Sequence record: PP418985.1 | DNA: 64,000 bases | Strand: one strand, 5' to 3' | Source of the DNA: Escherichia phage UPWr_E1 | Shown here: positions 1,312-61,263 of the stretch, piece after piece | Position numbering within the stretch: the first letter of the stretch is position 1 | Layout: each line of letters starts with the position of its first letter | Notes under the pieces: generated by a model | Seen by the model: the letters and a program-made list of their open reading frames with translations, nothing else | Databases searched by the model: none | What the model was told of the DNA's origin: nothing | Translations under genes and position numbers: made by a program

Positions 1312-2244
1312 TCAGAACCAGTTAGTGACAGTATTCACCACACGCCCACCAACGCCATTTAGACGCGATAAAGCATTACCAGCAGCAGATAACCCACTAT
1401 CAAGTAAATTGTTCCCGAAAGTGTTTGTTATTGCGTTTATGGCCTTATCCTCAATCCATTCCCGCGCGGCTTGCTCGCCTACTGCACCAGTTTGCATAGA
1501 ACGATATGCAAAAGTAACATCGAATGTTGTGATTTCGTTGTTATTTTCATAGGTTAATTCCGGTGCACTCACACCAACAGGAACACAACCACTAAACATC
1601 ATGATCGTGTGAGGAACACCCATCCTATTATGCAAATTGACCTGAATATCTGCTTCAACGTCAACAGGAAGCGCACGAAGCCCTGTAACGGGGTCTTCTA
1701 CTGAGTTAACCCAATCCTGCATTGCTCTATAGTTTGATGCGCTAGAGTCCATTCTAAAGCTCAATACAAGAGGATCAAAATCACGTCCGGTAATTCGAAT
1801 GTTTGGCGCATTGTGGTTACGGTCCATTTCATAACTCAATCTGTTTTCTGGAACCTTAACTGCATACACCAGAAGACCGCTTGTCTTATATGCCATATTG
1901 AACCAATCAAGAGCATATGTACCAACATCAAATTGCCCCAGAAGAGATTGAACTACGCGGGATGACATTGCACCCAAAAGATATTTTTTGACACCGGATG
2001 AATCAACCGCACGCCTAACGCCCTGTACAGCAAGATTAGTCAATGCGTCAGTATAATCACCACGAGTAATCCCGAAATAGTCATTTAATGCATTTGGTAT
2101 AATATCATATACCGCACCACCCATACTTTCTAGGATCGCTTGTGTCTTATTACTTGGTGTGGTGGCAAATGCCACGCTGAATAAGTTAGATCGCTGAAAG
2201 TCAAGGTTAGCGGCTTGTTCGTTAAAATCATTTAAATCAAACAT
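1312..2244 (-). CDS. 54: Baseplate tail tube initiator gp54
   Basis: 310 aa (T4 gp54 about 320 aa); last gene of the 51-27-28-29-48-54 order; T4-like context. Confidence 0.75.
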   Translation of the reverse strand: MFDLNDFNEQAANLDFQRSNLFSVAFATTPSNKTQAILESMGGAVYDIIPNALNDYFGITRGDYTDALTNLAVQGVRRAVDSSGVKKYLLGAMSSRVVQSLLGQFDVGTYALDWFNMAYKTSGLLVYAVKVPENRLSYEMDRNHNAPNIRITGRDFDPLVLSFRMDSSASNYRAMQDWVNSVEDPVTGLRALPVDVEADIQVNLHNRMGVPHTIMMFSGCVPVGVSAPELTYENNNEITTFDVTFAYRSMQTGAVGEQAAREWIEDKAINAITNTFGNNLLDSGLSAAGNALSRLNGVGGRVVNTVTNWF

Positions 2245-3302
2245 TATGCCGCACTCCCAAATATAGTACCACGGGAAAGTGTCAAGATCTCCCTAAATGA
2301 TACTTCCAGAACAAAGGTACTAGGCAAGTTAGGAGAAATAGCAAGGCCATTAAACTTACCATCAGGCGACTTGTCCAGACGTACACTTGAGATCTGAGCG
2401 GGACCAAATGCATCGCTACGCCCTTCAAATGATGTACGCTTACCGAAGTTAGAGATCATCCATATTGTCGGGTTAGATACAGTAATCACGTTGGATAGGA
2501 AATCAGTGATCCCCTCAAAAAGAGTATCATTTTTCTTTGCTTCGGCTGGCGTCGATTTGCTCAACAGCGTATTTTTATACCATGCATCAACTTCCGCTTT
2601 TAATTCTTTTGCGGTGCTGGAAATACCGCTAGAACCATAAGACAATTCTAAAAACGTTTCGTATATGATCAGAATATTGCGAAGGTCTTCAATACTACGT
2701 GGGGTTAGATGCCATACATAGTTTTTAGTTCGTGCGTCAGCACCAGCATACATGCTTCGAGCAGTATTATAAATCTGTTCACCGTGATCGGCAAGGTATC
2801 CACCAGTAATACTTTCTATACCACCAAAAACGGCAGTAGATGCCATATTTGATAGAGCGCCACCTAAAGTACCGCCACCACGAGAAATAACAGATTCGCC
2901 AACATCATTAAACTTATGGCTTGCGGCGTCAACGTCAGATTGACTACGAGGAAGAAGAATATTAGCAATTGCCTCGCGGTCAAATGCAGTATTTCTTCCG
3001 CCCAGATTTAAATCAAAACCAGCAATATTAACGCTACCACCAAAACCACTAGCAACATTTTTCTTTTTTCTGAAATCACGCAATGATCCAGTTGTGCGAG
3101 ATGTATAATCATATGCAGTGAATAACAGACCATTATTATATAAGTCGTTGATATAATAACCGCTAGCATCATTACCGCTAGCACGTTCAGCGGGGAATTG
3201 AGCGGTTAATGTTTTCCCTTTATTTTTTGAGGTAAAACCAGCGGAGGTTTTAACCCCCGCTTTAAAGCTATCAACGGCATCATTGATAACACTAATTTTC
3301 AT
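2244..3302 (-). CDS. 48: Baseplate tail tube cap gp48
   Basis: 352 aa (T4 gp48 about 364 aa); synteny between 29 and 54; start/stop overlap with neighbours. Confidence 0.75.
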   Translation of the reverse strand: MKISVINDAVDSFKAGVKTSAGFTSKNKGKTLTAQFPAERASGNDASGYYINDLYNNGLLFTAYDYTSRTTGSLRDFRKKKNVASGFGGSVNIAGFDLNLGGRNTAFDREAIANILLPRSQSDVDAASHKFNDVGESVISRGGGTLGGALSNMASTAVFGGIESITGGYLADHGEQIYNTARSMYAGADARTKNYVWHLTPRSIEDLRNILIIYETFLELSYGSSGISSTAKELKAEVDAWYKNTLLSKSTPAEAKKNDTLFEGITDFLSNVITVSNPTIWMISNFGKRTSFEGRSDAFGPAQISSVRLDKSPDGKFNGLAISPNLPSTFVLEVSFREILTLSRGTIFGSAA

Positions 3303-5035
3303 TAAAAGATCCCCATATTAATTGTACCGGGTGCATCAATTCGAGTTGTAGGCGCGCCCTGTTTAATAGTTCTATTGTTTGTTACAATTTGTGTATTATT
3401 TACATTTGCCGTCTGGTTTGTCGTTTGTTGCTGGATTGCAGCTTGTTTCTGCATTTGTTCAGTACGGTCCGCTTGTCTTGCTGTTTCCGTTTCAGTTGCA
3501 GGAACAGGTTTAGTTTGAATCACACCCTTAGTTTTATCAGCATACATCTCATCAAATTTTTCAATAAGACGCTCTAACTGAGAACGATCACTTTCAACTA
3601 ATGTAGGATCTTGAACTTGCTCACGGTAAACATCAATATCCTTTTTCAACTCTCCCATTTTTTCTTTGTCATAATCACCGCTCAAGTTCTCCATAACTTC
3701 ATTAATATTATTGATCGCACCCTCGCTTTTAATTCTAAGTTTACGACTAGCAGATCGTTGTTCAGCAGAAACAGACTCATATTCCCCGCGCTTTAATTCT
3801 TCTTGTCGCTTCTCTGCGTCAACATCCTTTTGATCTCGCCAACCCAGACTAACAAGTCCTTCATTAACTTTATCTTTAATGGAGTCACCGATAGCCTCAC
3901 CAATATCACGGGCTTTTCCGGTCCAACCAGTACGCTCTCCGTATTTGTCCTCTTCATGCTCGGATTCAACTTTATCCATCAATTCAAGTTCTCTTTCGGT
4001 TGGCGTATATCCCTGTGAAACAGCAGACTTCAAAGCACCATATTCTAACTGATCAGCATAATCACCCATACCAGGGATCATGCGAAGAATTTTAGCAATA
4101 CCGGTAGTGATAATTCGATCAAGTTGGATAAAGGTTTTATAGAATGCATCACCAATACCCATAACAAGAGATTTAATTAATTCTCCATATTCACCCTTAG
4201 ACCAATAATCTCGAACTTGACGAATAGTTGTTAAAATATCGCTAATAGGACCAGCCCATTCTCCGGCCTTATCCATAAATTCATCGAATTTTGTTTCGAA
4301 TAAATCACTCCAATATCTGAAATGAATCATCAGGGTATCAATGGCAAAAACAACACCCATCAAAATAGCACCCCATTTTGCGGCTTCTGCCATAGCGGTC
4401 AAGGTGATCTTAAATAACATCCCTAAGACCTTATTAGAGATACCTATGGTTTCTTTAAATCCTCCACGAACAACTTTAAGAAGATTTTCCATAGAATCCG
4501 CATTGCGCTTATCTGCGGCGTTCTTTTTCTTCCGTTCCTCAACATCTGGTTTTTTCTTTGGAAGACCTTGATAGTTGTCATTATTAGGCTGTTCCGGTAC
4601 AGTAGGCAAAACTGGCTGAGGTGATGGCATTGTTTGCGGTTGTTCCGGTTTTTTCAGTGCTTCTTCAATCGCACCAATACCGCTAGCCATTTTACTGACA
4701 ACACCAAATCTACGTTCCATCATAACACCAAAACCACGTAATTTCTCATTCATCTGAGAAGAGAAATTATTGAGTTTTTGCAATTCTTCATAAGTTTTTT
4801 GGGTATTGCCAGCGGTAGATTGTGTATTTTCTGCCGTCAATTCATTGGCTGCGGTGTTATCCTCTACCGCACCAACAACTTCATTAGATTTTTGTTCTAC
4901 TGTCTCCGCCACCAATTCGGTAGCGGCTTGCAAATTATCAATAGAATCAAGTTTATCTAATTTGTTAAGTTTATCAATCGGATTTTCTTCCGCTTCCTTG
5001 CGCATCCCGCGAAATGATGTTAATGCGTCATTCAT
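3302..5035 (-). CDS. 29: Baseplate hub / tail length determinator gp29
   Basis: 577 aa (T4 gp29 about 590 aa); synteny; coupled to 28 and 48. Confidence 0.75.
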   Translation of the reverse strand: MNDALTSFRGMRKEAEENPIDKLNKLDKLDSIDNLQAATELVAETVEQKSNEVVGAVEDNTAANELTAENTQSTAGNTQKTYEELQKLNNFSSQMNEKLRGFGVMMERRFGVVSKMASGIGAIEEALKKPEQPQTMPSPQPVLPTVPEQPNNDNYQGLPKKKPDVEERKKKNAADKRNADSMENLLKVVRGGFKETIGISNKVLGMLFKITLTAMAEAAKWGAILMGVVFAIDTLMIHFRYWSDLFETKFDEFMDKAGEWAGPISDILTTIRQVRDYWSKGEYGELIKSLVMGIGDAFYKTFIQLDRIITTGIAKILRMIPGMGDYADQLEYGALKSAVSQGYTPTERELELMDKVESEHEEDKYGERTGWTGKARDIGEAIGDSIKDKVNEGLVSLGWRDQKDVDAEKRQEELKRGEYESVSAEQRSASRKLRIKSEGAINNINEVMENLSGDYDKEKMGELKKDIDVYREQVQDPTLVESDRSQLERLIEKFDEMYADKTKGVIQTKPVPATETETARQADRTEQMQKQAAIQQQTTNQTANVNNTQIVTNNRTIKQGAPTTRIDAPGTINMGIF

Positions 5036-5550
5036 GATAGGCGATCCAATATGTTAATTCCACCATAGATAGTGCCTTCCGGCGTATCCAGCGCAATAGT
5101 TTTTCTTAATCCGGTAGCCCAATCCATAATAAAAGCTGGAAAATCATGGAAGTCTACGCTAGGATCGTGATAATGATGACTCAAGAAATCAGCGTCATCG
5201 ATAATGGGGTCAGAAGTGTACATTGGATTTTTAAATTTAAAGACTTTACCATTTAAAGTAAATTCCGTCTCTGTACAAATATACACATCACACAACTTAA
5301 GACCATCCTTTTCTTCCAGACATTTACCATTAAACGCACAAAGGTTAAGCATAACCAATTCAGACTCGGCAGCGTTTAACCCAGGACAGATTGAATCAAG
5401 AAGAATCTTTAATGTTTCATCACAGCTACGAACATCTTTTAATAATCGATGTTGCTTAATCCCCATTTTTGGGATCTTGATATGTTTCCCGTTTATCTCT
5501 AATTTTTTTACAGGAACAACAAATTTTAACATAGGTTTAGTTTCTGTCAT
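5032..5550 (-). CDS. 28: Baseplate hub distal subunit gp28
   Basis: 172 aa (T4 gp28 about 177 aa); synteny 27-28-29. Confidence 0.7.
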   Translation of the reverse strand: MTETKPMLKFVVPVKKLEINGKHIKIPKMGIKQHRLLKDVRSCDETLKILLDSICPGLNAAESELVMLNLCAFNGKCLEEKDGLKLCDVYICTETEFTLNGKVFKFKNPMYTSDPIIDDADFLSHHYHDPSVDFHDFPAFIMDWATGLRKTIALDTPEGTIYGGINILDRLS

Positions 5551-15707: not shown

Positions 15708-15736
15708 AGCCATCCTTCGGGGTGGCTTTTTTGTTT
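15708..15736 (+). terminator. Rho-independent terminator after the hoc paralogs
   Basis: agccatcc-ttcg-gggtggct hairpin followed by a T-run. Confidence 0.65.
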
Positions 15737-15743
15737 TTAGTGC

Positions 15744-15771
15744 TTGACAGTGTGATTTAGTGGCTTATAAT
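15744..15771 (+). promoter_or_regulatory. Sigma70-like promoter
   Basis: TTGACA, 16-nt spacer, TATAAT. Confidence 0.6.
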
Positions 15772-15891
15772 GACACACATCAACAGGGCGTTACCCTATG
15801 AGGAAAATATTATGAATATGGGGTTGAAAATGGCTTTAATAACTGTTACTGTCCTATTCGTTGTTGTGTTTATGAATGTATGAGGTGAAGT

Positions 15892-16089: not shown

Positions 16090-16364
16090 TGGACAAGAAA
16101 ACAGCGTTAATGGTTTACATGCTACGCGAAGACCACGGTCTTAATTTTGTTGATATTGCTAAAAAGATTGGCGGGTTCAGCGGACAAGATGCGGCTAAGG
16201 CATGGTTGATGGTAAAAGATGCACGAGAGGCTTACGCCAACCGTGAAAAGGTTGTTTATCGTAAACACCACATCAACAAAAAATTTAAAAATAAAGTTCA
16301 AAAACGTGTTGACAAGCCAAATAACACTGTTATAATGGACGCATTCAAACGGGCAATGTCCTGA
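16089..16364 (+). CDS. Hypothetical basic protein (91 aa), possible DNA-binding
   Basis: Translationally coupled ORF; basic C-terminus (KKFKNKVQKR); function not established. Confidence 0.45.
   Translation: MDKKTALMVYMLREDHGLNFVDIAKKIGGFSGQDAAKAWLMVKDAREAYANREKVVYRKHHINKKFKNKVQKRVDKPNNTVIMDAFKRAMS
16309..16336 (+). promoter_or_regulatory. Sigma70-like promoter inside the 3' end of the 91-aa ORF
   Basis: TTGACA, 16-nt spacer, TATAAT; upstream of the ORF at 16411. Confidence 0.55.
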
Positions 16365-16410
16365 TTTGTAATTAATATTCTGAATAACTAATCAATAGAG
16401 GTGACTAATT

Positions 16411-16848
16411 ATGAAATTCCGCAAAAACCACGTAGCAATGAAAAAAGCAATGTTTGAAGCATTCAAAGCAGTTGATCAGGGCGGTGTTACTCTGATTGAG
16501 CAAATTAATGTTGATGTTTGGCAGTCTCCGGCGATCACTTGCTCACGTCTGGCGACGGCTGGTCTTCTGAATGTTCACAGCTCTACAGCATACGACGAAG
16601 CATTGCAAGTTATTAAGGCTTTCGCTGGCGACGTTACCAGCAAGTGGGTCTATGAGAATAAAGGTGAAATTGCGGTTGCTCACGTAGGCAACAATATCCA
16701 GATGGAAATCAAGATTAAGGAAGGGTCTAAACGCAATCAGATGCTTGTTCGCTTCCAGCCATACAAAACTAACGTAGTGCCGGATGATCTGGTCATCTCT
16801 AAGAGTAATGTTACCATTCGCCGAAATCAGATCGTTATCAACAAATAA
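16411..16848 (+). CDS. Hypothetical protein (145 aa)
   Basis: ORF with GAGG Shine-Dalgarno; terminator immediately downstream. Confidence 0.55.
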   Translation: MKFRKNHVAMKKAMFEAFKAVDQGGVTLIEQINVDVWQSPAITCSRLATAGLLNVHSSTAYDEALQVIKAFAGDVTSKWVYENKGEIAVAHVGNNIQMEIKIKEGSKRNQMLVRFQPYKTNVVPDDLVISKSNVTIRRNQIVINK

Positions 16849-43507: not shown

Positions 43508-43752
43508 TTTCTATCACTCCACATACCGAAAGTTGGATTATACACAAAATGTATAGCTTCATCAATAGTCTTGAATCGTTTGGTTACGTTAGCGCAATTA
43601 ATACCCTCCCATAGTTCATCGGTGTAATCGGATAGTGATGAATGAGTATGATCGATGATCTCTCCGATCTTTTCACCGTTCGCGATCACATCCCAACCGC
43701 AAGGGGATACCTGAATTGCTTCACAATTATCTGTAAATTTACGACGTGCCAT
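43495..43752 (-). CDS. Hypothetical protein (85 aa), first gene of the methyltransferase cassette
   Basis: ATG with GGAGG Shine-Dalgarno, directly downstream of a consensus sigma70 promoter. Confidence 0.5.
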   Translation of the reverse strand: MARRKFTDNCEAIQVSPCGWDVIANGEKIGEIIDHTHSSLSDYTDELWEGINCANVTKRFKTIDEAIHFVYNPTFGMWSDRKWHA

Positions 43753-43781
43753 AATTTATCCTCCGTTGTTTAGATGTGAGC

Positions 43782-43809
43782 ATTATACCTTACCTGACAA
43801 GATTGTCAA
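43782..43809 (-). promoter_or_regulatory. Consensus sigma70-type promoter driving the methyltransferase cassette
   Basis: Minus-strand TTGACA, 16-nt spacer, TATAAT; about 30 nt upstream of the 85-aa ORF. Confidence 0.7.
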
Positions 43810-43821
43810 CACCCAAAATGT

Positions 43822-43848
43822 AAAAAGCCAACTCTCTCGAATTGGCTT
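43822..43848 (-). terminator. Rho-independent terminator downstream of gene 8
   Basis: Minus-strand AAGCCAA-loop-TTGGCTT hairpin followed by a U-run. Confidence 0.6.
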
Positions 43849-43862
43849 TTAAAATCATACAC

Positions 43863-55510: not shown

Positions 55511-56167
55511 ATGAAATTGATTGCACTTTGTGGTAAAAAGCGAGTAGGAAAAGACACTGCCGCGTTAATCATTGATGGACATAGTTATCAACTGGCAGCA
55601 CCGATCAAAGAAATCTTATGCGAATGTCAACCGGAATTAGGACTGACTTATCTTGACTTTGACGGGTTGGGGCGTGACAGAGAAGCCGATCTAGGTATTG
55701 ATACATATACCGCGCATAAGTGGTTTATTCAGTGTCTGCTTATGCTAGATTCTAAGTATGGCGGTAGTTCCTTTACTTGTGATCGTCTGGCTGAGATTTA
55801 CAAGGTCGTTAATGAGATCGGCGAAAAACATAATAACGTCTGGTCTATTCGTCTCATGTTAACCACTCTCGGTACTGATATAATGGTTAACTTGATCAAT
55901 CCGCTTTATTGGTGTAATCTCTTCGTGAATGAGTTTATGAAGCGCAAAAATGAAGAAGGGTATTTTGTAGTGGTTGATGTGCGTCAGCCTATTGAAATTG
56001 CTCTCATGCGTTCTATGGGTGCTAAGGTGTTGCATATTCAGCGTGATACTGGTATTGTATCGACTCACTCAACCGAAAAAGGAATTGTGCCTATTGACGG
56101 TGAAACCATTATCATAAATAATGGTACATTAGAAGAATTTGAAAGCGCGGTTCTAGCGAACATTTAA
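55511..56167 (+). CDS. 1: Deoxynucleoside monophosphate kinase gp1
   Basis: Matches T4 gp1 (MKLI-L-G-KR-GKDT P-loop, QLA-PIK, SIR-LM--LGTD); 218 aa. Confidence 0.85.
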   Translation: MKLIALCGKKRVGKDTAALIIDGHSYQLAAPIKEILCECQPELGLTYLDFDGLGRDREADLGIDTYTAHKWFIQCLLMLDSKYGGSSFTCDRLAEIYKVVNEIGEKHNNVWSIRLMLTTLGTDIMVNLINPLYWCNLFVNEFMKRKNEEGYFVVVDVRQPIEIALMRSMGAKVLHIQRDTGIVSTHSTEKGIVPIDGETIIINNGTLEEFESAVLANI

Positions 56168-56199
56168 TAAAAAGTTATCAACAAGTAGGAGATGTGAAT

Positions 56200-56451
56200 A
56201 TGTCCAATCAGCATGAGCAAATGATTAATGTCCTGAAAGTACGTCTGTTTGACACTCAAGAAAAGGCCGCATTCTTAGAAGGCCAACTGAAAGATCGTGA
56301 GCGTGTATTGATGGAACTGGTACGCATTCTTGGTATTCAGCCAGATGAAAATGGCACTGTTTCCCTTGATGCTATCGTCGAAGAAGTAAAAGCACTTCTC
56401 CCTAAAGACGAAGACGCAGAAGAGGAAGTAGAACTGATCACGGAGGCTTGA
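56200..56451 (+). CDS. 57A: Tail fibre assembly chaperone gp57A-like
   Basis: 83 aa coiled-coil protein (T4 gp57A 79 aa) downstream of gene 1; AGGAG Shine-Dalgarno. Confidence 0.55.
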   Translation: MSNQHEQMINVLKVRLFDTQEKAAFLEGQLKDRERVLMELVRILGIQPDENGTVSLDAIVEEVKALLPKDEDAEEEVELITEA

Positions 56452-56918
56452 TTATGACCCCGTTTCGAGAATCCGTTAAAGGTACATATGCGGCGGTTAA
56501 ATTCACTGAGGATACACTAGACCGCATTGAAAAATTGCAGGAGTTCTACGACCTGCCTAATGCCGTTCCTCGTGATAAACTGCATAGTACTATCTTATAT
56601 TCTCGTGTTTATGTTCCGTTTATCCCAGAAGAAGGGGAGAAGTTCTTAGGCTCTCTATGCCATCTGAAAGTGTTTGAAACTCAATCCGGTACTAATGCGC
56701 TTGTGCTGGCATTTGAAAGCGACTACATGCAATTCAGACACGATATCGGCACTGCTTTAGGTGCGACGTGGGATTATCCTGAATATGTACCGCATATCAC
56801 GCTTTCTTATGATGTTGGTGCGCGTAAATTTGGCACTGACCTAGAGTTCGATTTAGAGATTGTCCGATCTCATGAGTATGTCGAAGATCTAGATCTGGAG
56901 TGGACGACCAAACTGTAA
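56448..56918 (+). CDS. 57B: 57B-like 2H phosphoesterase (LigT-like) protein
   Basis: 156 aa (T4 57B 152 aa); two H-x-T/S-x motifs (HSTILY and HITLSY) typical of the 2H phosphoesterase fold. Confidence 0.6.
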   Translation: MIMTPFRESVKGTYAAVKFTEDTLDRIEKLQEFYDLPNAVPRDKLHSTILYSRVYVPFIPEEGEKFLGSLCHLKVFETQSGTNALVLAFESDYMQFRHDIGTALGATWDYPEYVPHITLSYDVGARKFGTDLEFDLEIVRSHEYVEDLDLEWTTKL

Positions 56919-56925
56919 TTCTATA

Positions 56926-56956
56926 CCCCGAAAATTTTTCGGGGTTTTTTGTTTTT
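56926..56956 (+). terminator. Rho-independent terminator after 57B
   Basis: ccccgaaaatttttcgggg hairpin followed by a T-run. Confidence 0.7.
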
Positions 56957-56961
56957 ATGTG

Positions 56962-56990
56962 TTGACAACCATAAACGACTATAGCATAAT
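56962..56990 (+). promoter_or_regulatory. Early sigma70-like promoter P1 with conserved leader
   Basis: TTGACA, 17 nt, CATAAT, then leader catcgaaacgaaacacac...GGAGAATCAAAATG. Confidence 0.65.
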
Positions 56991-57027
56991 GCACATATCG
57001 AAACGAAACACACTTAGGAGAATCAAA

Positions 57028-57405
57028 ATGATGATGATGTTTAAAGATAAATTCGAATGTCACTACACCCGTAACTTTGACTTAGTATCCCGCTACTACA
57101 TTCATAAAGAAACTGGAACGCAAGTAGTTCTTGAATCTCACAGCGAAGTAGGATTCGATTCAACAAAAGTAGCAATTAGTGCTCGCTTCTGGGATAACGG
57201 CAAATTTGCTTATATCGCTTGGAACGACGACGAAAATGTAATTACAGTAGCTTTCGGTGATGACTACTACACTAAAAAGACTTTCGATAGTAAGCCATCA
57301 AATGAATACCTGAAAGCGTATGTGCAGCACATGTTCCAACGTGTTCTGACCGGAATGGAAATCAATGTCATGAAAGACATTGTAGACGAAGTAAAATATT
57401 CTTAA
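57028..57405 (+). CDS. Hypothetical early protein (125 aa)
   Basis: ATG run (MMMMFKDKF) preceded by AGGAG; the track ORF starts earlier at 56959 inside the promoter. Confidence 0.55.
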   Translation: MMMMFKDKFECHYTRNFDLVSRYYIHKETGTQVVLESHSEVGFDSTKVAISARFWDNGKFAYIAWNDDENVITVAFGDDYYTKKTFDSKPSNEYLKAYVQHMFQRVLTGMEINVMKDIVDEVKYS

Positions 57406-57411
57406 AAATAG

Positions 57412-57440
57412 TTGACAACATGAAACGGGGGTAGTAAGAT
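57412..57440 (+). promoter_or_regulatory. Early sigma70-like promoter P2
   Basis: TTGACA, 17 nt, TAAGAT; leader ...aacgaaaGGAGAATCAAAATG. Confidence 0.55.
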
Positions 57441-57471
57441 ACCCCCACAAACAAACGAAAGGAGAATCAAA

Positions 57472-57630
57472 ATGAAATTTATCGGTAAAACTTTTATGTT
57501 CGTAGCTGGTACTCTGTTTACTGCAACTCTGTTAGCTGGTGGCTTAGATATCTTTACTGCCTTTGAAACTTTCGGGTATACTGTAGCATCGGGTGCTCTC
57601 TTCGGATTGGGTTTAGCGATTAGCAAATAA
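57472..57630 (+). CDS. Small membrane peptide (52 aa)
   Basis: GGAGAAT Shine-Dalgarno; hydrophobic Gly/Ala/Thr/Leu-rich sequence. Confidence 0.5.
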   Translation: MKFIGKTFMFVAGTLFTATLLAGGLDIFTAFETFGYTVASGALFGLGLAISK

Positions 57631-57639
57631 GGTGATAAT

Positions 57640-57843
57640 ATGGAATTGGATATGGTTAAAGCAAAATTTATGGGTAAGGATAAGAGCGGTAAAACATTTG
57701 TTATTAATAGAACATTGTTTCGCTCTGACCTTAAGTGGGTAACACAACAATTTGCGGAAGTCAACGAGGCAGTTGTGACATGCTTTGTTGATGATAAAAA
57801 AGTTTTTGAAATTGATCGTCGTGGGGTGTCTAATGATCACTAA
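57640..57843 (+). CDS. Hypothetical small protein (67 aa)
   Basis: ORF in the early operon; soluble. Confidence 0.45.
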   Translation: MELDMVKAKFMGKDKSGKTFVINRTLFRSDLKWVTQQFAEVNEAVVTCFVDDKKVFEIDRRGVSNDH

Positions 57844-58030
57844 ACTGTTTAGCAATACTTTGTTTATGATTGCATTTGTTTTCTTTCTGTGTCTGATGAT
57901 CGGTGTTGTTACAGTAGGTAGCTATTCCGGTGTTACCTTAGATGATTTTTGCAAACTTGTTTTGATCTCGTTTATACCTAGTATTCTGCTCGCTTTATGT
58001 GGTGCTTTTAAATGGCTTTGTACGCTATGA
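57833..58030 (+). CDS. Small membrane protein (65 aa)
   Basis: ATG at 57833 overlapping the upstream stop; two hydrophobic segments. Confidence 0.45.
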   Translation: MITKLFSNTLFMIAFVFFLCLMIGVVTVGSYSGVTLDDFCKLVLISFIPSILLALCGAFKWLCTL

Positions 58031-58133
58031 ACGAAATAGAACGAATGATGTTGATAGGTGGACCTGAGTTCACTAAATTTGATGCAATTCTTATTGCGTT
58101 TGGTTTTCTTATGATCTTTTGTATGGTGGCGCT

Positions 58134-58358
58134 ATGAGTAGTATAAAATATTTCGCTTTCTTGTGCTTTATGATGTTCTTTACATTCTTAGCATGTGTTT
58201 TCTTTACCTGGCTTGCTCATGTTGATAATGCAACCGGACCGTTTTACTTCTTCTGTGTATTGTCTGTGTTGACTGGTGCTTTTGTTACGTGGATGATTCG
58301 AGATTGTTACGGAATGTATAAGTTTGAAAAGACTCGACCGAAATGGGGCAAACGATGA
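58134..58358 (+). CDS. Small membrane protein (74 aa)
   Basis: ATG 58134; two predicted transmembrane segments. Confidence 0.45.
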   Translation: MSSIKYFAFLCFMMFFTFLACVFFTWLAHVDNATGPFYFFCVLSVLTGAFVTWMIRDCYGMYKFEKTRPKWGKR

Positions 58359-58537
58359 AATTATTTGCGTGGCTAATTATTTTAAATGTAATTGTTAAGA
58401 CCTTTCTCGCTGGTCTGATGATGGCGCATAGCACCGAACCAGAAGAAGCATTAACGTATTTTGTTGCTTATGTGTTGGGATTCTTGCTTACTGCGTGGAT
58501 GTGTGATGAATATCGAAGAATTGAGGTAAAACCATGA
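58355..58537 (+). CDS. Small membrane protein (60 aa)
   Basis: ATGA-coupled to the upstream ORF; hydrophobic. Confidence 0.45.
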   Translation: MKLFAWLIILNVIVKTFLAGLMMAHSTEPEEALTYFVAYVLGFLLTAWMCDEYRRIEVKP

Positions 58538-58752
58538 AAATGACTTTTTATATCTTAGCAAGTATCATGCTTGTGATCTCTTCTGCACTATTTGCATTTC
58601 TTACCGTCTGGGGGATCTGTACTGATGCGAAGCCGTGGGATATCGTAGAAAATGCGGTTATGTTCCTGATTAGTATCATGTGTCTTTTTGATGCCTTTGA
58701 CTCTATAAAAGAAGAAGATCAAAAACGTCGCGAGAGAAAGCGATATAAATAA
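58534..58752 (+). CDS. Small membrane protein (72 aa)
   Basis: ATGA-coupled; hydrophobic N-terminal half, basic tail. Confidence 0.45.
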   Translation: MKMTFYILASIMLVISSALFAFLTVWGICTDAKPWDIVENAVMFLISIMCLFDAFDSIKEEDQKRRERKRYK

Positions 58753-58902
58753 TAGTGAACTAAAGACAGCGCGGTTAGAATGATTTGGACGTCACCTAGC
58801 CGCATTTATTACAGCGTATGGGATTGATCCGGTATGCTAAAGCATTCACTTGCTAGGCCGCTAGCAGGTTGGAGACAAGGAAGATTCGCTACCTTCCCTA
58901 TA

Positions 58903-58928
58903 AGCCACTCTTCGGAGTGGCTTTTTTA
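58903..58928 (+). terminator. Rho-independent terminator
   Basis: agccactc-ttcg-gagtggct hairpin followed by ttttt. Confidence 0.65.
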
Positions 58929-58954
58929 TTGCCTAAAATTTTTTAAAAAAGTTG

Positions 58955-58983
58955 TTGACTCCAGGTCCAGCCTATAGCATAAT
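58955..58983 (+). promoter_or_regulatory. Early sigma70-like promoter P3 with conserved leader
   Basis: TTGACT, 17 nt, CATAAT; leader catcgaaacgaaacacac...GGAGAATCAAAttATG. Confidence 0.6.
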
Positions 58984-59029
58984 ACACACATCGAAACGAA
59001 ACACACTTTCTTAAACGGAGAATCAAATT

Positions 59030-59215
59030 ATGGCACGTCGCATCACTAAAGCACTGAAAGCAGTAAGCAAAGAAAACGTAGTAGCTATTCTGGTAATCTG
59101 GGGTTATAACGAAGAATCCGCTAAACAGAAAGTTGAAGCAGGGTTTGAGATGGCAGTAAAAGCAATGCCGAATGATGACTCTGTAGGGCTGGCAAATTAT
59201 ATCGCATATTTCTGA
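59030..59215 (+). CDS. Hypothetical small protein (61 aa)
   Basis: ORF behind P3 and its leader. Confidence 0.5.
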   Translation: MARRITKALKAVSKENVVAILVIWGYNEESAKQKVEAGFEMAVKAMPNDDSVGLANYIAYF

Positions 59216-59224
59216 TAAAAAGTG

Positions 59225-59254
59225 TTGACAGGGGAGGATAAACTCCCCTACAAT
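59225..59254 (+). promoter_or_regulatory. Early sigma70-like promoter P4
   Basis: TTGACA, 18 nt, TACAAT; leader ...caacgaaacGGGAGAATCAAAATG. Confidence 0.55.
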
Positions 59255-59283
59255 ACAACCATCAACGAAACGGGAGAATCAAA

Positions 59284-59505
59284 ATGATTAACTTTAAAGA
59301 CGCAGCAAAAGAAATTATCGACTTTGAGCGCGAACTGTTTGAAATGGAACCTAATATGAGTAAACTGGAACTGGCTAACCAGATCTGGTGCTCTAAAATG
59401 AATCCAGCAGACCGCTTAGAAGTTGTGAACATCGTAGGTGAAGTGAAAGGTAGTGCATTAATGAAACTCCGCGCTTGTCACGCTTACATTGCTGATCAAC
59501 TGTGA
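59284..59505 (+). CDS. Hypothetical small protein (73 aa)
   Basis: ORF behind P4. Confidence 0.5.
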   Translation: MINFKDAAKEIIDFERELFEMEPNMSKLELANQIWCSKMNPADRLEVVNIVGEVKGSALMKLRACHAYIADQL

Positions 59506-59515
59506 GGGATATATC

Positions 59516-59710
59516 ATGGGAGATAAACCATTAGTACAACTAAGAGTACGCTATAACCAGATTTTAGCATTACTTAAAGCTGAGGGTGTAGATCCATCGG
59601 ACCGCGAGGCTGTAAAAGCGTGTCTATCTGATACGGTACAACCAAAGCATAATTTTGCTTGTTATATGTACTTTTACAGTAGGTTGAATAGACCGTTTGA
59701 GTTTGAATAA
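59516..59710 (+). CDS. Hypothetical small protein (64 aa)
   Basis: ATG at 59516 with GAGGGA Shine-Dalgarno. Confidence 0.45.
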   Translation: MGDKPLVQLRVRYNQILALLKAEGVDPSDREAVKACLSDTVQPKHNFACYMYFYSRLNRPFEFE

Positions 59711-59732
59711 CGTTAAGTGTTGAGGTGATACT

Positions 59733-59933
59733 ATGGATATTAAAGAGCAACTTGTATTAGTTCGAGAATCGGCTAAAGACCACGGCATGAGCGAAGAATT
59801 TGTTGAATGGTTTATTGATAACAAATTCAATCCAAGCCCAAATTCGACTTTTAACTATTTGGCTATGTCCATTATGTGGGAAGGTTGGAAAGGCGCGGTA
59901 GAAACTGCCTTAAAAATTATGAAAAAAGACTAA
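59733..59933 (+). CDS. Hypothetical small protein (66 aa)
   Basis: ORF with GAGGTGA Shine-Dalgarno. Confidence 0.45.
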   Translation: MDIKEQLVLVRESAKDHGMSEEFVEWFIDNKFNPSPNSTFNYLAMSIMWEGWKGAVETALKIMKKD

Positions 59934-59940
59934 AAAGTTG

Positions 59941-59969
59941 TTGACACGCGAGAGGGTGTATAGCATAAT
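59941..59969 (+). promoter_or_regulatory. Early sigma70-like promoter P5 with conserved leader
   Basis: TTGACA, 17 nt, CATAAT; leader catcgaaacgaaacacac..AGGAGtATCAAAAATG. Confidence 0.6.
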
Positions 59970-60007
59970 ACACCCATCGAAACGAAACACACTAAGGAGT
60001 ATCAAAA

Positions 60008-60334
60008 ATGAAACCAGTATCTGTTAAAGTTATCTTCTCTGAATCTTCTGTATTCGCTAACGCAAACGAAGTATTCCACTTCGAAGACTTCGAGCGTAAA
60101 GCACAGGACGCGGCAGCAAAAGCCTATGAAAGCGAATATGACAAAACTCAAATCGAGGTTACTTTCGAAAACGGCACTACTTACGCTTGCCGCCTTGACC
60201 TGGGTGATCGTCTGTCTGGCTTCCGTCACCATGTAGAGAAGACAATCGCTTTCTCTAAAACCGAAAAAGGAAAACACTACTTTTCTGTATTCGGTACTGA
60301 AAATCTGGATTTCTTGAAAACTGTTTCTTTCTAA
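60008..60334 (+). CDS. Hypothetical protein (108 aa)
   Basis: ORF behind P5. Confidence 0.5.
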   Translation: MKPVSVKVIFSESSVFANANEVFHFEDFERKAQDAAAKAYESEYDKTQIEVTFENGTTYACRLDLGDRLSGFRHHVEKTIAFSKTEKGKHYFSVFGTENLDFLKTVSF

Positions 60335-60342
60335 GGTACAAT

Positions 60343-60525
60343 ATGAAAAAGATTAATTGGTTAGCGAACATAGGCGCGGTATGCGCCTTTAACATCCTCG
60401 GATGGATAATGTTACATTTTGATGAGCGAGTTTCAAAATGTGACGGTGCATTAATTCTCGGATCGGCTAGCATATTCATTATGCTGTATGCAATTGCTGT
60501 TGACTTAAGCCGCGAGGATTGTTAA
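60343..60525 (+). CDS. Small membrane protein (60 aa)
   Basis: Hydrophobic ORF. Confidence 0.4.
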   Translation: MKKINWLANIGAVCAFNILGWIMLHFDERVSKCDGALILGSASIFIMLYAIAVDLSREDC

Positions 60526-60526
60526 T

Positions 60527-60724
60527 ATGACGATCAAGAATATGTTTTTCAACTTCGTAGGTGCTTCCATTCTTTCAATGCTATATCTTGTGATTGTATG
60601 GATGGGCGACTATGAATTAACTAACGATGAAAATCTGACAGTGTTTACTGTCTTGACGATGATCATTTACACTGTCTTTCTTGTCTTGGATTTTATTGTG
60701 TTTCTTTACAAAACGGTGACTTGA
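60527..60724 (+). CDS. Small membrane protein (65 aa)
   Basis: Hydrophobic ORF; two predicted transmembrane segments. Confidence 0.4.
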   Translation: MTIKNMFFNFVGASILSMLYLVIVWMGDYELTNDENLTVFTVLTMIIYTVFLVLDFIVFLYKTVT

Positions 60725-60921
60725 TGACGATTAGGAAAAATGATATTGGTTTTGTTGCGGGTATCGCTAGCGTCTTTACTGTTGTTATTTTGCTAATGCT
60801 TTTACCCGGTGTATTCTCTGACCAGATTGAATTGTATATAGCTTTTATCTGTTGCATTTATACTTGGTTTGCAATGTTTGTGATTAGTCTAATTATGCAA
60901 TTCGTAGTTAACAAATTTTAA
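60721..60921 (+). CDS. Small membrane protein (66 aa)
   Basis: Hydrophobic ORF; ATGA coupling to the upstream ORF. Confidence 0.4.
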   Translation: MMTIRKNDIGFVAGIASVFTVVILLMLLPGVFSDQIELYIAFICCIYTWFAMFVISLIMQFVVNKF

Positions 60922-60942
60922 ATTTAATGTGAGGATTATATT

Positions 60943-61263
60943 ATGAGCAAACTGTTTGAAACTCCGCGTGAAATTCTGATTGACAAGCTGAAAGAACGTG
61001 GTTTTAAAATTAAAGATGCAACAAAATACAGCCGAATTGATGAAATTAAGTTGCATTCTCTTGATGAACTGGTAGAATATGTTGCGGCAGTTGCTGATCC
61101 GCAGTTTGATGTGATTGTAGGTGACGTTGAATATCTCGATAATGTATATTCATTCTTCACTTATGGTAAAATTGTGTCTGTGAAAATTTCATTCTGTGAA
61201 AATGTGGAGGTGCTTGCTAGTGAACCAGAAGAACCAACTGACAACGGTCCTACGGCAGCGTAA
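60943..61263 (+). CDS. Hypothetical protein (106 aa)
   Basis: ORF with GAGGA Shine-Dalgarno. Confidence 0.5.
   Translation: MSKLFETPREILIDKLKERGFKIKDATKYSRIDEIKLHSLDELVEYVAAVADPQFDVIVGDVEYLDNVYSFFTYGKIVSVKISFCENVEVLASEPEEPTDNGPTAA

What the first reader, a model, noticed from the sequence alone, without database searches (positions are those of the whole stretch)
56926..60008. Reiterated early promoter-leader cassette (TTGACA-17-CATAAT plus conserved 5' UTR) in front of small-ORF groups
At least five units (starting 56962, 57412, 58955, 59225, 59941) share the same layout: terminator, TTGACA, 17-18 nt, (C/T)A(T/C)AAT, a conserved leader (catcgaaacgaaacacac in three of them), and GGAGAATCAAAATG. 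This looks like repeated capture or duplication of one expression cassette. The conserved GGAG in the Shine-Dalgarno region is the kind of site targeted by T4 RegB endoribonuclease, suggesting coordinated post-transcriptional shut-off of these early genes.
Basis: partly seen in the sequence, partly recalled or inferred. Interest (0 to 1): 0.45.

Follow-up and report, generated by a model that had tools for sequence, protein, structure and literature searches.

The report
Known phage promoter–stem-loop cassettes (PeSLs)
The five repeated promoter-leader units are real, but they are the already published "PeSL" early promoter/stem-loop cassettes of RB49-type T4-like coliphages, which drive small early genes and act as recombination points for gene shuffling; cutting by the RegB ribonuclease is plausible but untested.

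Summary
The window comes from an RB49-like T4-type coliphage (Krischvirus, 94-97% identical to RB49, phi1, JSE and G2494). Each has a near-consensus sigma-70 promoter, a stable G/C-rich hairpin, a short unstructured A/C-rich leader, a GGAG Shine-Dalgarno and an ATG. Five such promoters in 3.15 kb compare with 0.8 expected.

This is the PeSL ("promoter-early stem-loop") cassette of Arbiol et al. 2010 and Comeau et al. 2014, about 51 copies per RB49 genome. The same five promoters are already annotated in the GEC-3S record.

Phage Skers supports the published shuffling role at this locus. It carries an extra ORFan plus a second cassette at unit 5, with both junctions inside the conserved leader.

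The RegB idea is only partly supported:
- regB is absent from the window but lies about 1.7 kb past its end in RB49, and all 58 related records have it.
- GGAGAAUCAAA matches the T4 RegB/S1 consensus GGAGRAYARAA at 10 of 11 positions and is predicted single-stranded.
- The mismatch is a C at a key A position, and no cleavage data exist.
- Similar GGAG cassettes recur in sampled T1-like phages; none of the 60 sampled RegB matches was a phage of that size.

Verdict: real, ordinary, already known.

The parts
56925..57030 (+). Unit 1, between the 57B gene and the RB49p125 orthologue. Terminator hairpin 56925-56945 plus T-run; -35 TTGACA 56962-56967; 17-nt spacer; -10 CATAAT 56985-56990; leader ATCGAAACGAAACACAC 56997-57013; GGAG 57017-57020; ATG 57028 (RB49 annotates the next ATG, 57031).
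   Evidence: Hairpin -12.8 kcal/mol, z -3.25. Leader unstructured. Conserved in 5 relatives. Annotated as promoter plus terminator in GEC-3S.
57412..57474 (+). Unit 2, upstream of the 52-aa ORF / dmd / small membrane-ORF operon (57472-58752). -35 TTGACA 57412-57417; -10 TAAGAT 57435-57440; hairpin GGGGGTA...TACCCCC 57427-57446 overlapping the -10; GGAG 57461-57464; ATG 57472.
   Evidence: Hairpin -14.0 kcal/mol, z -3.84. dmd identified by Pfam and PHROG. Annotated promoter in GEC-3S.
58902..59032 (+). Unit 3, upstream of the 61-aa DUF7421 ORF (59030-59215). Terminator hairpin 58902-58923 plus T-run; -35 TTGACT 58955-58960 (TTGACA in all 5 relatives compared); -10 CATAAT 58978-58983; leader 58990-59006; GGAG 59017-59020; ATG 59030.
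   Evidence: Hairpin -14.8 kcal/mol, z -4.79..
59225..59286 (+). Unit 4, upstream of a three-ORF group (59284-59933). -35 TTGACA 59225-59230; hairpin GGGGAG...CTCCCC 59230-59249 filling the 18-nt spacer; -10 TACAAT 59249-59254; leader ATCAACGAAAC; GGAG 59273-59276; ATG 59284.
   Evidence: Hairpin -13.9 kcal/mol, z -4.35..
59941..60010 (+). Unit 5, upstream of the 108-aa LPD25-domain ORF (60008-60334) and the following small ORFs. -35 TTGACA 59941-59946; hairpin 59949-59979 (core GGGTGTA...TACACCC) enclosing the -10 CATAAT 59964-59969; leader 59976-59992; GGAG 59997-60000; ATG 60008.
   Evidence: Hairpin -14.8 kcal/mol, z -4.93.. Site of the ORFan-plus-cassette insertion in phage Skers.
15710..15813 (+). 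Probable further unit of the same family, outside the finding and inside the virion-gene block. Terminator-like hairpin, TTGACA-16-TATAAT (15744-15771), leader ACACACATCAAC, a second hairpin, then GAGG Shine-Dalgarno and ATG.
   Evidence: Not examined further.
16309..16413 (+). Probable further unit. TTGACA-16-TATAAT (16309-16336), with a hairpin just downstream of the -10 (GGACGCATT...AATGTCC), then GAGGTG Shine-Dalgarno and ATG.
   Evidence: Not examined further.
43749..43850 (-). Probable further unit on the opposite strand. Terminator-like hairpin plus T-run, TTGACA-16-TATAAT (43809 down to 43782), leader CTCACATCTAAACAAC, GGAGGATAAATTATG.
   Evidence: Not examined further.

Best explanation
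The five units are PeSLs (promoter-early stem-loop cassettes), the repeated regulatory modules of RB49-type T4-like phages. Each combines four elements: an A-rich upstream tract, a near-consensus host sigma-70 promoter, a G-run/C-run hairpin, and a short unstructured A/C-rich 5' leader ending in a strong ribosome-binding site (UAAGGAG, A-rich spacer, AUG).

Inferred from sequence and from published work on sister cassettes:
- Immediately after infection, unmodified host RNA polymerase fires from each cassette and expresses the small ORFan group behind it.
- The hairpin attenuates or terminates read-through from the cassette upstream, so each group is an insulated transcription unit.
- Because about 60-100 bp of sequence is shared between copies, the phage recombination system can cross over between cassettes. 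The preferred site is between the -10 and the Shine-Dalgarno. This deletes, inserts or swaps the ORF modules in between.

Shown here: the anatomy, the excess over chance, orthology to RB49, and one cassette-bounded indel at unit 5.

An additional inferred and unproven layer: the GGAGAAUCAAA element may be cut by the phage RegB endoribonuclease with ribosomal protein S1, shutting these early mRNAs off.
For: Identity of the phage: 94-97% identity to 58 Krischvirus genomes, including RB49, phi1 and JSE.

Fit to the published definition (PMC2839356):
- Sigma-70 consensus promoter, AT-rich region upstream of -35, a stable stem-loop with polyG/polyC tracts, and Shine-Dalgarno plus start codon at the 3' end.
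- The hairpin sits upstream of -35, between the boxes, or over the -10. All are seen here.
- Location in a hyperplastic region in front of ORFans.

Excess over chance.

RB49 survey (219 early-strand annotated genes): 63 are promoter-proximal, and the exact 11-mer GGAGAATCAAA occurs in 22 of them against 1 of the other 156. The 83-nt unit 5 hits 11-15 places per Krischvirus genome.

Independent annotation: GEC-3S carries exactly five promoters and two terminators at the orthologous sites.

Recombination role:
- Skers has an extra 47-aa ORFan flanked by two cassettes at unit 5, with junctions at CATCGAAACGA| and |CATCGAAAC.
- In the window, the unit 5 leader lacks 5 nt that are present in all 5 relatives, which makes it identical to the leaders of units 1 and 3. 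That is compatible with conversion between copies.

Published function of sister PeSLs: strong promoter activity (about 13,000 Miller units) and termination comparable to rrnB T1.
Against: - None of these five copies has been tested for promoter or terminator activity. I could not confirm from the paper's main text that they are among its 51 listed RB49 PeSLs; the supplement is not held.
- Three of the five hairpins lack a U-tract, so they would be atypical intrinsic terminators.
- Across the 58 relatives, four of the five units show no gene-content change: one search returned single full-length pieces for all but Skers. Shuffling at this locus is therefore rare, and functional constraint alone could explain much of the similarity.
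Confidence: 0.9

Rival explanations
1. The cassettes are, beyond promoters, a dedicated RegB regulon. The conserved GGAGAAUCAAA is selected as a target of the phage RegB endoribonuclease with host S1. The cut removes the Shine-Dalgarno of the promoter-proximal cistron. It leaves a 5'-OH end that phage polynucleotide kinase would convert into an entry site for host RNases, switching off all cassette-driven early mRNAs together. The kinase and host-RNase step is from my own recollection of T4 work, not from a paper read here.
For: - regB is annotated in RB49 1.7 kb beyond the window end, on the same strand. It matches Pfam REGB_T4 at 1e-48 and the T4 RegB structure 2HX6 at 3e-26.
- 58 Krischvirus records hold a RegB at least 95% identical.
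- RB49 RegB is reported active on its own GGAU Shine-Dalgarno, and I confirmed the sequence aaGGATAATAAAATG.
- The site fits 10 of 11 positions of GGAGRAYARAA and is predicted single-stranded.
- In RB49, GGAG Shine-Dalgarnos occur in 40 of 63 promoter-proximal genes against 29 of 156 others, Fisher p = 5e-10.
- The regB operon itself starts with such a cassette (RB49 52375).
- pseT (polynucleotide kinase) is present in RB49.
Against: - The one mismatch is C at position 8. A6, A8 and A11 are the most conserved positions, and C is almost excluded from cleaved T4 sites.
- Only 24 of 68 intergenic T4 GGAG/U motifs tested are cut efficiently.
- The enrichment statistic counts copies of one repeated cassette, so the observations are not independent.
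- UAAGGAG plus an A-rich spacer is also just an optimal ribosome-binding site.
- T1-like Drexlerviridae cassettes have the same leader and GGAG, and no phage of that size appeared among the 60 evenly sampled RegB matches.
- RB49 RegB has N at the position of T4 His68. That histidine is, from my recollection of the Saida 2003 work whose title appears, one of two needed for full activity. Its specificity is reported to differ from T4 (from my memory of the Piesiniene 2004 abstract; the paper is not held).
- regB is not in the window itself.
Confidence: 0.4
2. There is no mobility or common descent. The similarity is convergent: each intergenic region was independently optimised toward the same host sigma-70 consensus, an unstructured leader and a consensus ribosome-binding site.
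For: - The best-conserved blocks are exactly the functional ones: TTGACA, the -10 and GGAG.
- The leaders are less structured than shuffled controls in 4 of 5 units.
- An analogous grammar occurs in unrelated T1-like phages.
Against: - Identity extends over positions with no consensus requirement. Examples are 17 of 17 nt of leader in three units, TATAGCATAATACAC around the -10, and AAAAAGTTG upstream.
- The exact 11-mer GGAGAATCAAA recurs 22 times in RB49 promoter-proximal sites.
- The Skers junctions lie in the shared leader.
- Mini-circles formed by cassette-to-cassette crossover have been demonstrated.
Confidence: 0.08
3. Ordinary tandem gene duplication: the promoters are repeated because the genes behind them are paralogues that were duplicated together with their upstream regions.
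For: Small ORFs of similar size follow each unit.
Against: - The first ORFs behind the five units fall into five different PHROG families and unrelated Pfam hits.
- The alignment similarity ends at the ATG.
Confidence: 0.02

Closest known systems
PeSL (promoter-early stem-loop) cassettes of coliphages RB49 and phi1 (Arbiol et al. 2010, PMC2839356; Comeau et al. 2014, PMC4122927)
   Same: Same phage lineage (95-96% identity to RB49 and phi1). The architecture is the same element by element, the hairpin positions fall in the published classes, and the location is a hyperplastic region in front of ORFans. The same kind of cassette-bounded indel is seen, with the crossover between the -10 and the Shine-Dalgarno.
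   Different: Nothing substantive. These five copies are not individually discussed in the paper's main text. The papers mention neither RegB nor GGAG, nor the two stereotyped ribosome-binding-site classes seen.
T4 RegB/S1 cleavage sites in early mRNAs (consensus GGAGRAYARAA; Durand et al. 2006, PMC1702504)
   Same: GGAG lies in the Shine-Dalgarno of early, promoter-proximal cistrons, is followed by an A-rich stretch, and is single-stranded. A RegB homologue is encoded by the lineage.
   Different: C instead of A at position 8. The RB49 enzyme is only about 42-44% identical to RegB of T4-type relatives and lacks His68. Cleavage at these sites has never been shown.
T4 RegA translational operators (AU-rich sequence between the Shine-Dalgarno and AUG)
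   Same: RB49 encodes regA. A second stereotyped ribosome-binding site, GAGGATTATATTATG, is AU-rich up to the AUG. It recurs in RB49 behind about 12 early promoters and at window 60943.
   Different: This resemblance is from my own memory of RegA targets and was not tested. The five units of the finding carry the GGAG class, not this one.
Integron gene cassettes and phage 'morons'
   Same: Small ORF modules move together with expression signals and can exist as circles. The PeSL authors themselves draw this analogy.
   Different: No integrase and no attC-type site. Exchange relies on short homology and the general phage recombination system. The promoter itself is the linker.

Membership tests
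PeSL cassette (RB49/phi1 type) | Near-consensus sigma-70 promoter (TTGACA, about 17 nt, TATAAT) | tested here: met
   All five score 10-11 of 12 with 17-18 nt spacers. Five observed against 0.8 expected.
PeSL cassette (RB49/phi1 type) | AT-rich tract immediately upstream of -35, usually containing the stop codon of the upstream gene | tested here: met
   TAAAAA(G/T)(T/A)G precedes TTGAC in units 2-5, and a T-run precedes it in unit 1.
PeSL cassette (RB49/phi1 type) | Stable stem-loop, typically G-run/C-run, placed upstream of -35, between the boxes, over a box, or just downstream of the -10 | tested here: met
   Hairpins of -12.8 to -14.8 kcal/mol, z -3.3 to -4.9. Positions: upstream of -35 (units 1, 3), in the spacer (unit 4), over the -10 (units 2, 5).
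PeSL cassette (RB49/phi1 type) | Shine-Dalgarno and start codon of the downstream gene form the 3' end of the element | tested here: met
   GGAG lies 7-9 nt before the ATG in all five units.
PeSL cassette (RB49/phi1 type) | Intergenic, in a hyperplastic region, mostly in front of ORFans | tested here: met
   The region between 57B and regB consists of about 30 small, mostly hypothetical ORFs.
PeSL cassette (RB49/phi1 type) | Association with insertion, deletion or replacement of flanking ORFs between close relatives | tested here: met
   Met for unit 5: the Skers ORFan insertion has junctions in the leader. No indel at the other four units in 58 records.
PeSL cassette (RB49/phi1 type) | Demonstrated promoter and terminator/attenuator activity, and mini-circle formation | not testable with these tools
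   Shown experimentally only for other copies: PeSL206/205, 211/210 and 193/192.
RegB/S1 target site (T4 definition) | Invariant GGA followed by G (or U) at position 4 | tested here: met
   GGAG is present in all five units.
RegB/S1 target site (T4 definition) | A-rich 7 nt immediately 3' (GGAGRAYARAA; A6, A8 and A11 most conserved; C nearly excluded) | tested here: inconclusive
   GGAGAATCAAA fits 10 of 11 and GGAGTATCAAA fits 9 of 11. The mismatch common to both is C at position 8.
RegB/S1 target site (T4 definition) | The site lies in single-stranded RNA | tested here: met
   The predicted leaders fold at only -0.2 to -2.6 kcal/mol, no better than shuffled controls.
RegB/S1 target site (T4 definition) | The genome encodes RegB | tested here: inconclusive
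   There is no regB in the 64-kb window. In RB49 it lies 1.7 kb past the window end. It is present in 58 Krischvirus records and belongs to Pfam REGB_T4.
RegB/S1 target site (T4 definition) | RegB-dependent cleavage in the middle of GGAG in vivo or in vitro | not testable with these tools
   No data were found for these transcripts. For RB49, only its own regB GGAU site is reported as cut.

The most novel reading that the evidence does not exclude
The 3' half of the PeSL (unstructured AUCGAAAC leader plus GGAGAAUCAAA) may be more than a strong ribosome-binding site. It may be a portable post-transcriptional address tag. PeSL-driven genes in RB49-type phages fall into two stereotyped classes of translation-initiation region:
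- GGAGAAUCAAA-AUG, which is RegB/S1-like.
- GAGGAUUAUAUUAUG, which has no GGAG and is AU-rich like RegA operators.
Any ORF captured behind a cassette would then be enrolled automatically in one shut-off programme.

In addition, the same leader is shared with a distinct promoter-hairpin cassette of T1-like Drexlerviridae. One such cassette, with the motif TAGCACTTTTTGTTAAAAC, sits in the Skers insertion at unit 5. The leader could therefore serve as the homology patch for gene exchange between unrelated virulent phage families.
Probability: 0.25. Interest if true: 0.55.

Novelty: already known. Interest (0 to 1): 0.18.

Why it matters
As it stands, the finding re-discovers from raw sequence a published element, the PeSLs of RB49 and phi1, so it adds no new biology. 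It is still a clean positive control for the scan.

Two side results could make modest follow-up studies:
- The link between the PeSL ribosome-binding site and the RegB/S1 target consensus, and the existence of a second, GGAG-free class. The two PeSL papers read here do not discuss either point.
- Evidence that T1-like siphophages carry an analogous cassette with the same leader, and that one has entered a Krischvirus exactly at unit 5.

If confirmed, these would extend the idea of regulatory cassettes as recombination linkers beyond T4-like phages.

Tried and rejected
- Rfam scan of 56000-61000 at a permissive threshold: only sub-threshold hits (RNAI 22.8 bits against a gathering score of 47, and similar), all over the terminator region 58833-58953. 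No known RNA family explains the leaders.
- tRNA/tmRNA scan of the whole window: none found.
- regB in the window by tblastn: absent.
- Tandem paralogue duplication: rejected, because the downstream ORFs are unrelated.
- The Skers 47-aa ORF searched in 50,697 phage records, to see whether the module had moved between genomes: found only in Skers.
- Literature:
  - The RB49 RegB paper (PMC524301) and the RB49 snapshot paper (PMC135041) are not held.
  - The supplement of the PeSL paper is not held, so the list of 51 RB49 PeSLs could not be cross-checked.
  - No Krischvirus transcriptome paper was found.
- I did not use the large protein-database, structure-prediction or metagenome tools, because the identification was unambiguous without them.

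Full report
**What the window is.** A megablast of 56900-60050 finds 58 phage records, all RB49-like T4-type coliphages (genus Krischvirus), at 93-96% identity over the full length. They include RB49, phi1, JSE, GEC-3S and G2494. The window runs antiparallel to the RB49 record. Position 56900 corresponds to about RB49 60743, and the window end (64000) to RB49 53669. The finding lies at the start of a hyperplastic region of about 30 small, mostly hypothetical genes. That region runs from gene 57B to regB, all on one strand.

**Checking the observation.**
- The five TTGAC(A/T) boxes are exactly at 56962, 57412, 58955, 59225 and 59941.
- They are the only + strand sites scoring at least 10/12 in the 3.15-kb region. 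Markov simulations give 0.80 +/- 0.91, P about 0.0005.
- GGAGAATCAAAATG is exact three times and has two mismatches once; no shuffle reaches that count.
- ATCGAAACGAAACACAC is exact three times.
- The multiple alignment adds an A-rich tract plus GTTGAC upstream and an invariant GGAG.ATCAAA block.
- Every unit has a stable hairpin of -12.8 to -14.8 kcal/mol, z -3.3 to -4.9.
- Only units 1 and 3 have a classical upstream terminator with a T-run. In unit 4 the hairpin fills the spacer. In units 2 and 5 it covers the -10.
- From the expected start site to +20 of the ORF, the transcribed leaders are essentially unstructured (-0.2 to -2.6 kcal/mol). Four of five are less structured than shuffled controls.

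**What it is.** This anatomy matches element for element the "promoter-early stem-loop" (PeSL) cassette described for RB49 and phi1 (PMC2839356). That definition comprises an AT-rich region, a sigma-70 consensus promoter, a polyG/polyC stem-loop in one of five positions, and the Shine-Dalgarno and ATG of the downstream gene. RB49 has about 51 copies, mostly in hyperplastic regions in front of ORFans.
- Sister copies were shown experimentally to be very strong promoters. One hairpin terminated as well as rrnB T1.
- The RB49 locus tags appear to follow the paper's ORF numbers, for example p192, p205/206 and p210/211. On that numbering the five units would be PeSL126/125, 125/124, 118/117, 117/116 and 114/113.
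- I could not check them against the authors' list because the supplement is not held.
- The GEC-3S GenBank record already annotates exactly five promoters and two terminators at the orthologous positions.
- The units are nearly invariant in RB49, G2494, Skers, JSE and phiS.

**Genome-wide picture in RB49.** I rebuilt 116.7 kb of RB49 and looked upstream of its 219 annotated early-strand genes.
- 63 genes are promoter-proximal.
- GGAG Shine-Dalgarnos occur in 40 of these 63 against 29 of the other 156 (Fisher p = 5e-10).
- The exact 11-mer GGAGAATCAAA occurs in 22 promoter-proximal genes against 1 other gene.
- These copies share ancestry, so the p-value overstates independence.
- A second stereotyped ribosome-binding site, GAGGATTATATTATG, follows about a dozen other early promoters.
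- The 83-nt unit 5 hits 11-15 places per Krischvirus genome.
- The ORFs behind the five units are unrelated to one another. They comprise five PHROG families, dmd in the second operon, DUF7421 and an LPD25 domain. The cassette is repeated, not the genes.

**How it works.** The published model says the cassettes are insulated early transcription units and also serve as homology "linkers" for modular shuffling, including excised mini-circles. Crossovers were mapped between the -10 and the Shine-Dalgarno. I found direct support at this locus.
- Phage Skers has an extra 47-aa ORFan at the position of unit 5, followed by a second cassette.
- The left junction is ...CATCGAAACGA| and the right junction is |CATCGAAACACACTAAGGAG. 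Both lie inside the conserved leader.
- In the window itself, the unit 5 leader lacks 5 nt (GAACT) that are present in all five relatives compared. This makes it identical to the leaders of units 1 and 3 and is compatible with conversion between copies.
- Four of the five units show no gene-content variation in 58 genomes, so exchange here is infrequent.

**The RegB idea.** regB is not in the window. In RB49 it lies 1.7 kb past the window end on the same strand.
- It is a clear member of Pfam REGB_T4 and matches the T4 RegB structure 2HX6.
- It is present at 95% identity or more in 58 records, the same number of records as carry this region.
- The review PMC3014915 states that the RB49 regB Shine-Dalgarno is GGAU and that such sites, when tested, were cut in vivo. 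The sequence aaGGATAATAAAATG is indeed there.
- The T4 RegB/S1 target is the 11-nt single-stranded GGAGRAYARAA (PMC1702504). GGAGAAUCAAA fits 10 of 11 positions.
- The misfit is a C at position 8. That is one of the three best-conserved A positions, in a stretch from which C is nearly excluded.
- Only 24 of 68 intergenic T4 GGAG/U motifs tested were cut efficiently.
- UAAGGAG plus an A-rich spacer is also what an optimal ribosome-binding site looks like.
- Analogous cassettes in T1-like phages also use GGAG. None of the 60 evenly sampled RegB matches was a phage of that size.

I therefore rate RegB targeting as plausible, at about 0.4, and not shown.

**Side observation on other phage families.** The right-hand cassette of the Skers insertion reads aaaaTAGCACTTTTTGTTAAAAC, then a hairpin over TATAGT, then CATCGAAAC, then GGAG. 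It is about 80% identical over 80 nt to a sequence present in many of the 307 matching records, which are mostly about 50-kb Klebsiella and Escherichia phages. The two records I opened, KP36 (Webervirus) and Henu7, are Drexlerviridae.
- The cassette is repeated within those genomes: 4 copies in 4.4 kb of KP36 and 2 in Henu7.
- The TAGCAC...TTAAAAC motif is absent from the window and from 116 kb of RB49.
- This suggests that T1-like phages have their own PeSL-like cassettes sharing the leader, and that one crossed into a Krischvirus at unit 5.
- The two PeSL papers treat only T4-like phages.

**Verdict.** The RegB reading is a reasonable, untested extension. Novelty: already known. Interest is low (0.18). 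The two side leads above carry most of the residual value.

Noticed in passing
window 58753-58930 (+): A 178-nt non-coding stretch lies between the last ORF of the dmd operon and unit 3, and ends in the strong terminator 58902-58923. It folds to -64.3 kcal/mol (z -4.66), matches no Rfam family above threshold and contains no tRNA. It is unannotated in RB49. The 58 full-length matching records are 95-99% identical here (95.5-98.3% in the rows listed), compared with 90-99% (93.8-96.1% in the rows listed) for the surrounding 3.15 kb. It is a candidate structured 3' UTR or small stable RNA.
   Followed up: partly
L004 (phage Skers, MW748999.1) 5030-5330; L009 (KP36) 1495-3522; L010 (Henu7) 1503-2523: At the position of window unit 5, Skers has a unique 47-aa ORFan plus a second cassette. 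That cassette's promoter-hairpin-leader is about 80% identical over 80 nt to a cassette in many of 307 matching records, mostly about 50-kb Klebsiella and Escherichia phages. The two records opened are T1-like Drexlerviridae, and the cassette (motif TAGCACNWWTKGYTAAAAC) is repeated in both. The motif is absent from the window and from 116 kb of RB49. This suggests PeSL-like cassettes outside the T4-like phages and a transfer between phage families through the shared CATCGAAAC leader.
   Followed up: partly
RB49 loci L007, L008 and L001; window 60929-60945: A second stereotyped translation-initiation region, GAGGATTATATTATG (no GGAG, AU-rich up to the AUG), follows about a dozen RB49 early promoters. 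In the window it precedes the ORF at 60943. Together with GGAGAATCAAA-ATG it gives two sharply defined classes of ribosome-binding site. RB49 also encodes regA. A link to RegA is speculation.
   Followed up: partly
window 58955-58960 and 59976-59996: There are two window-specific changes relative to the five relatives compared. The -35 of unit 3 is TTGACT instead of TTGACA. The unit 5 leader lacks GAACT, which makes it identical to the leaders of units 1 and 3 and is possibly a conversion between cassette copies.
   Followed up: no
window 15710-15813 (+), 16309-16413 (+), 43749-43850 (-): Three more consensus-promoter-plus-hairpin units sit in front of small ORFs, embedded in the conserved virion-gene block. 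One is on the opposite strand. Its ORF, like the one behind unit 3, begins ATGGCACGTCG (MARR...).
   Followed up: no
L003 2557-2979 (RB49 regB, outside the window): RB49 RegB aligns with T4 RegB (PDB 2HX6). Glu19, His48 and Arg52 are conserved, but Asn replaces T4 His68. The regB operon in RB49 is itself headed by a cassette with the CATCGAAAC leader and GGAGTATTAAAATG (RB49 52375).
   Followed up: partly
window 60527-60921: Two adjacent ORFs of about 65 aa in the window, RB49 and G2494 are replaced by a single 195-nt ORF in phiS and JSE. That indel does not appear to be bounded by a promoter cassette.
   Followed up: no
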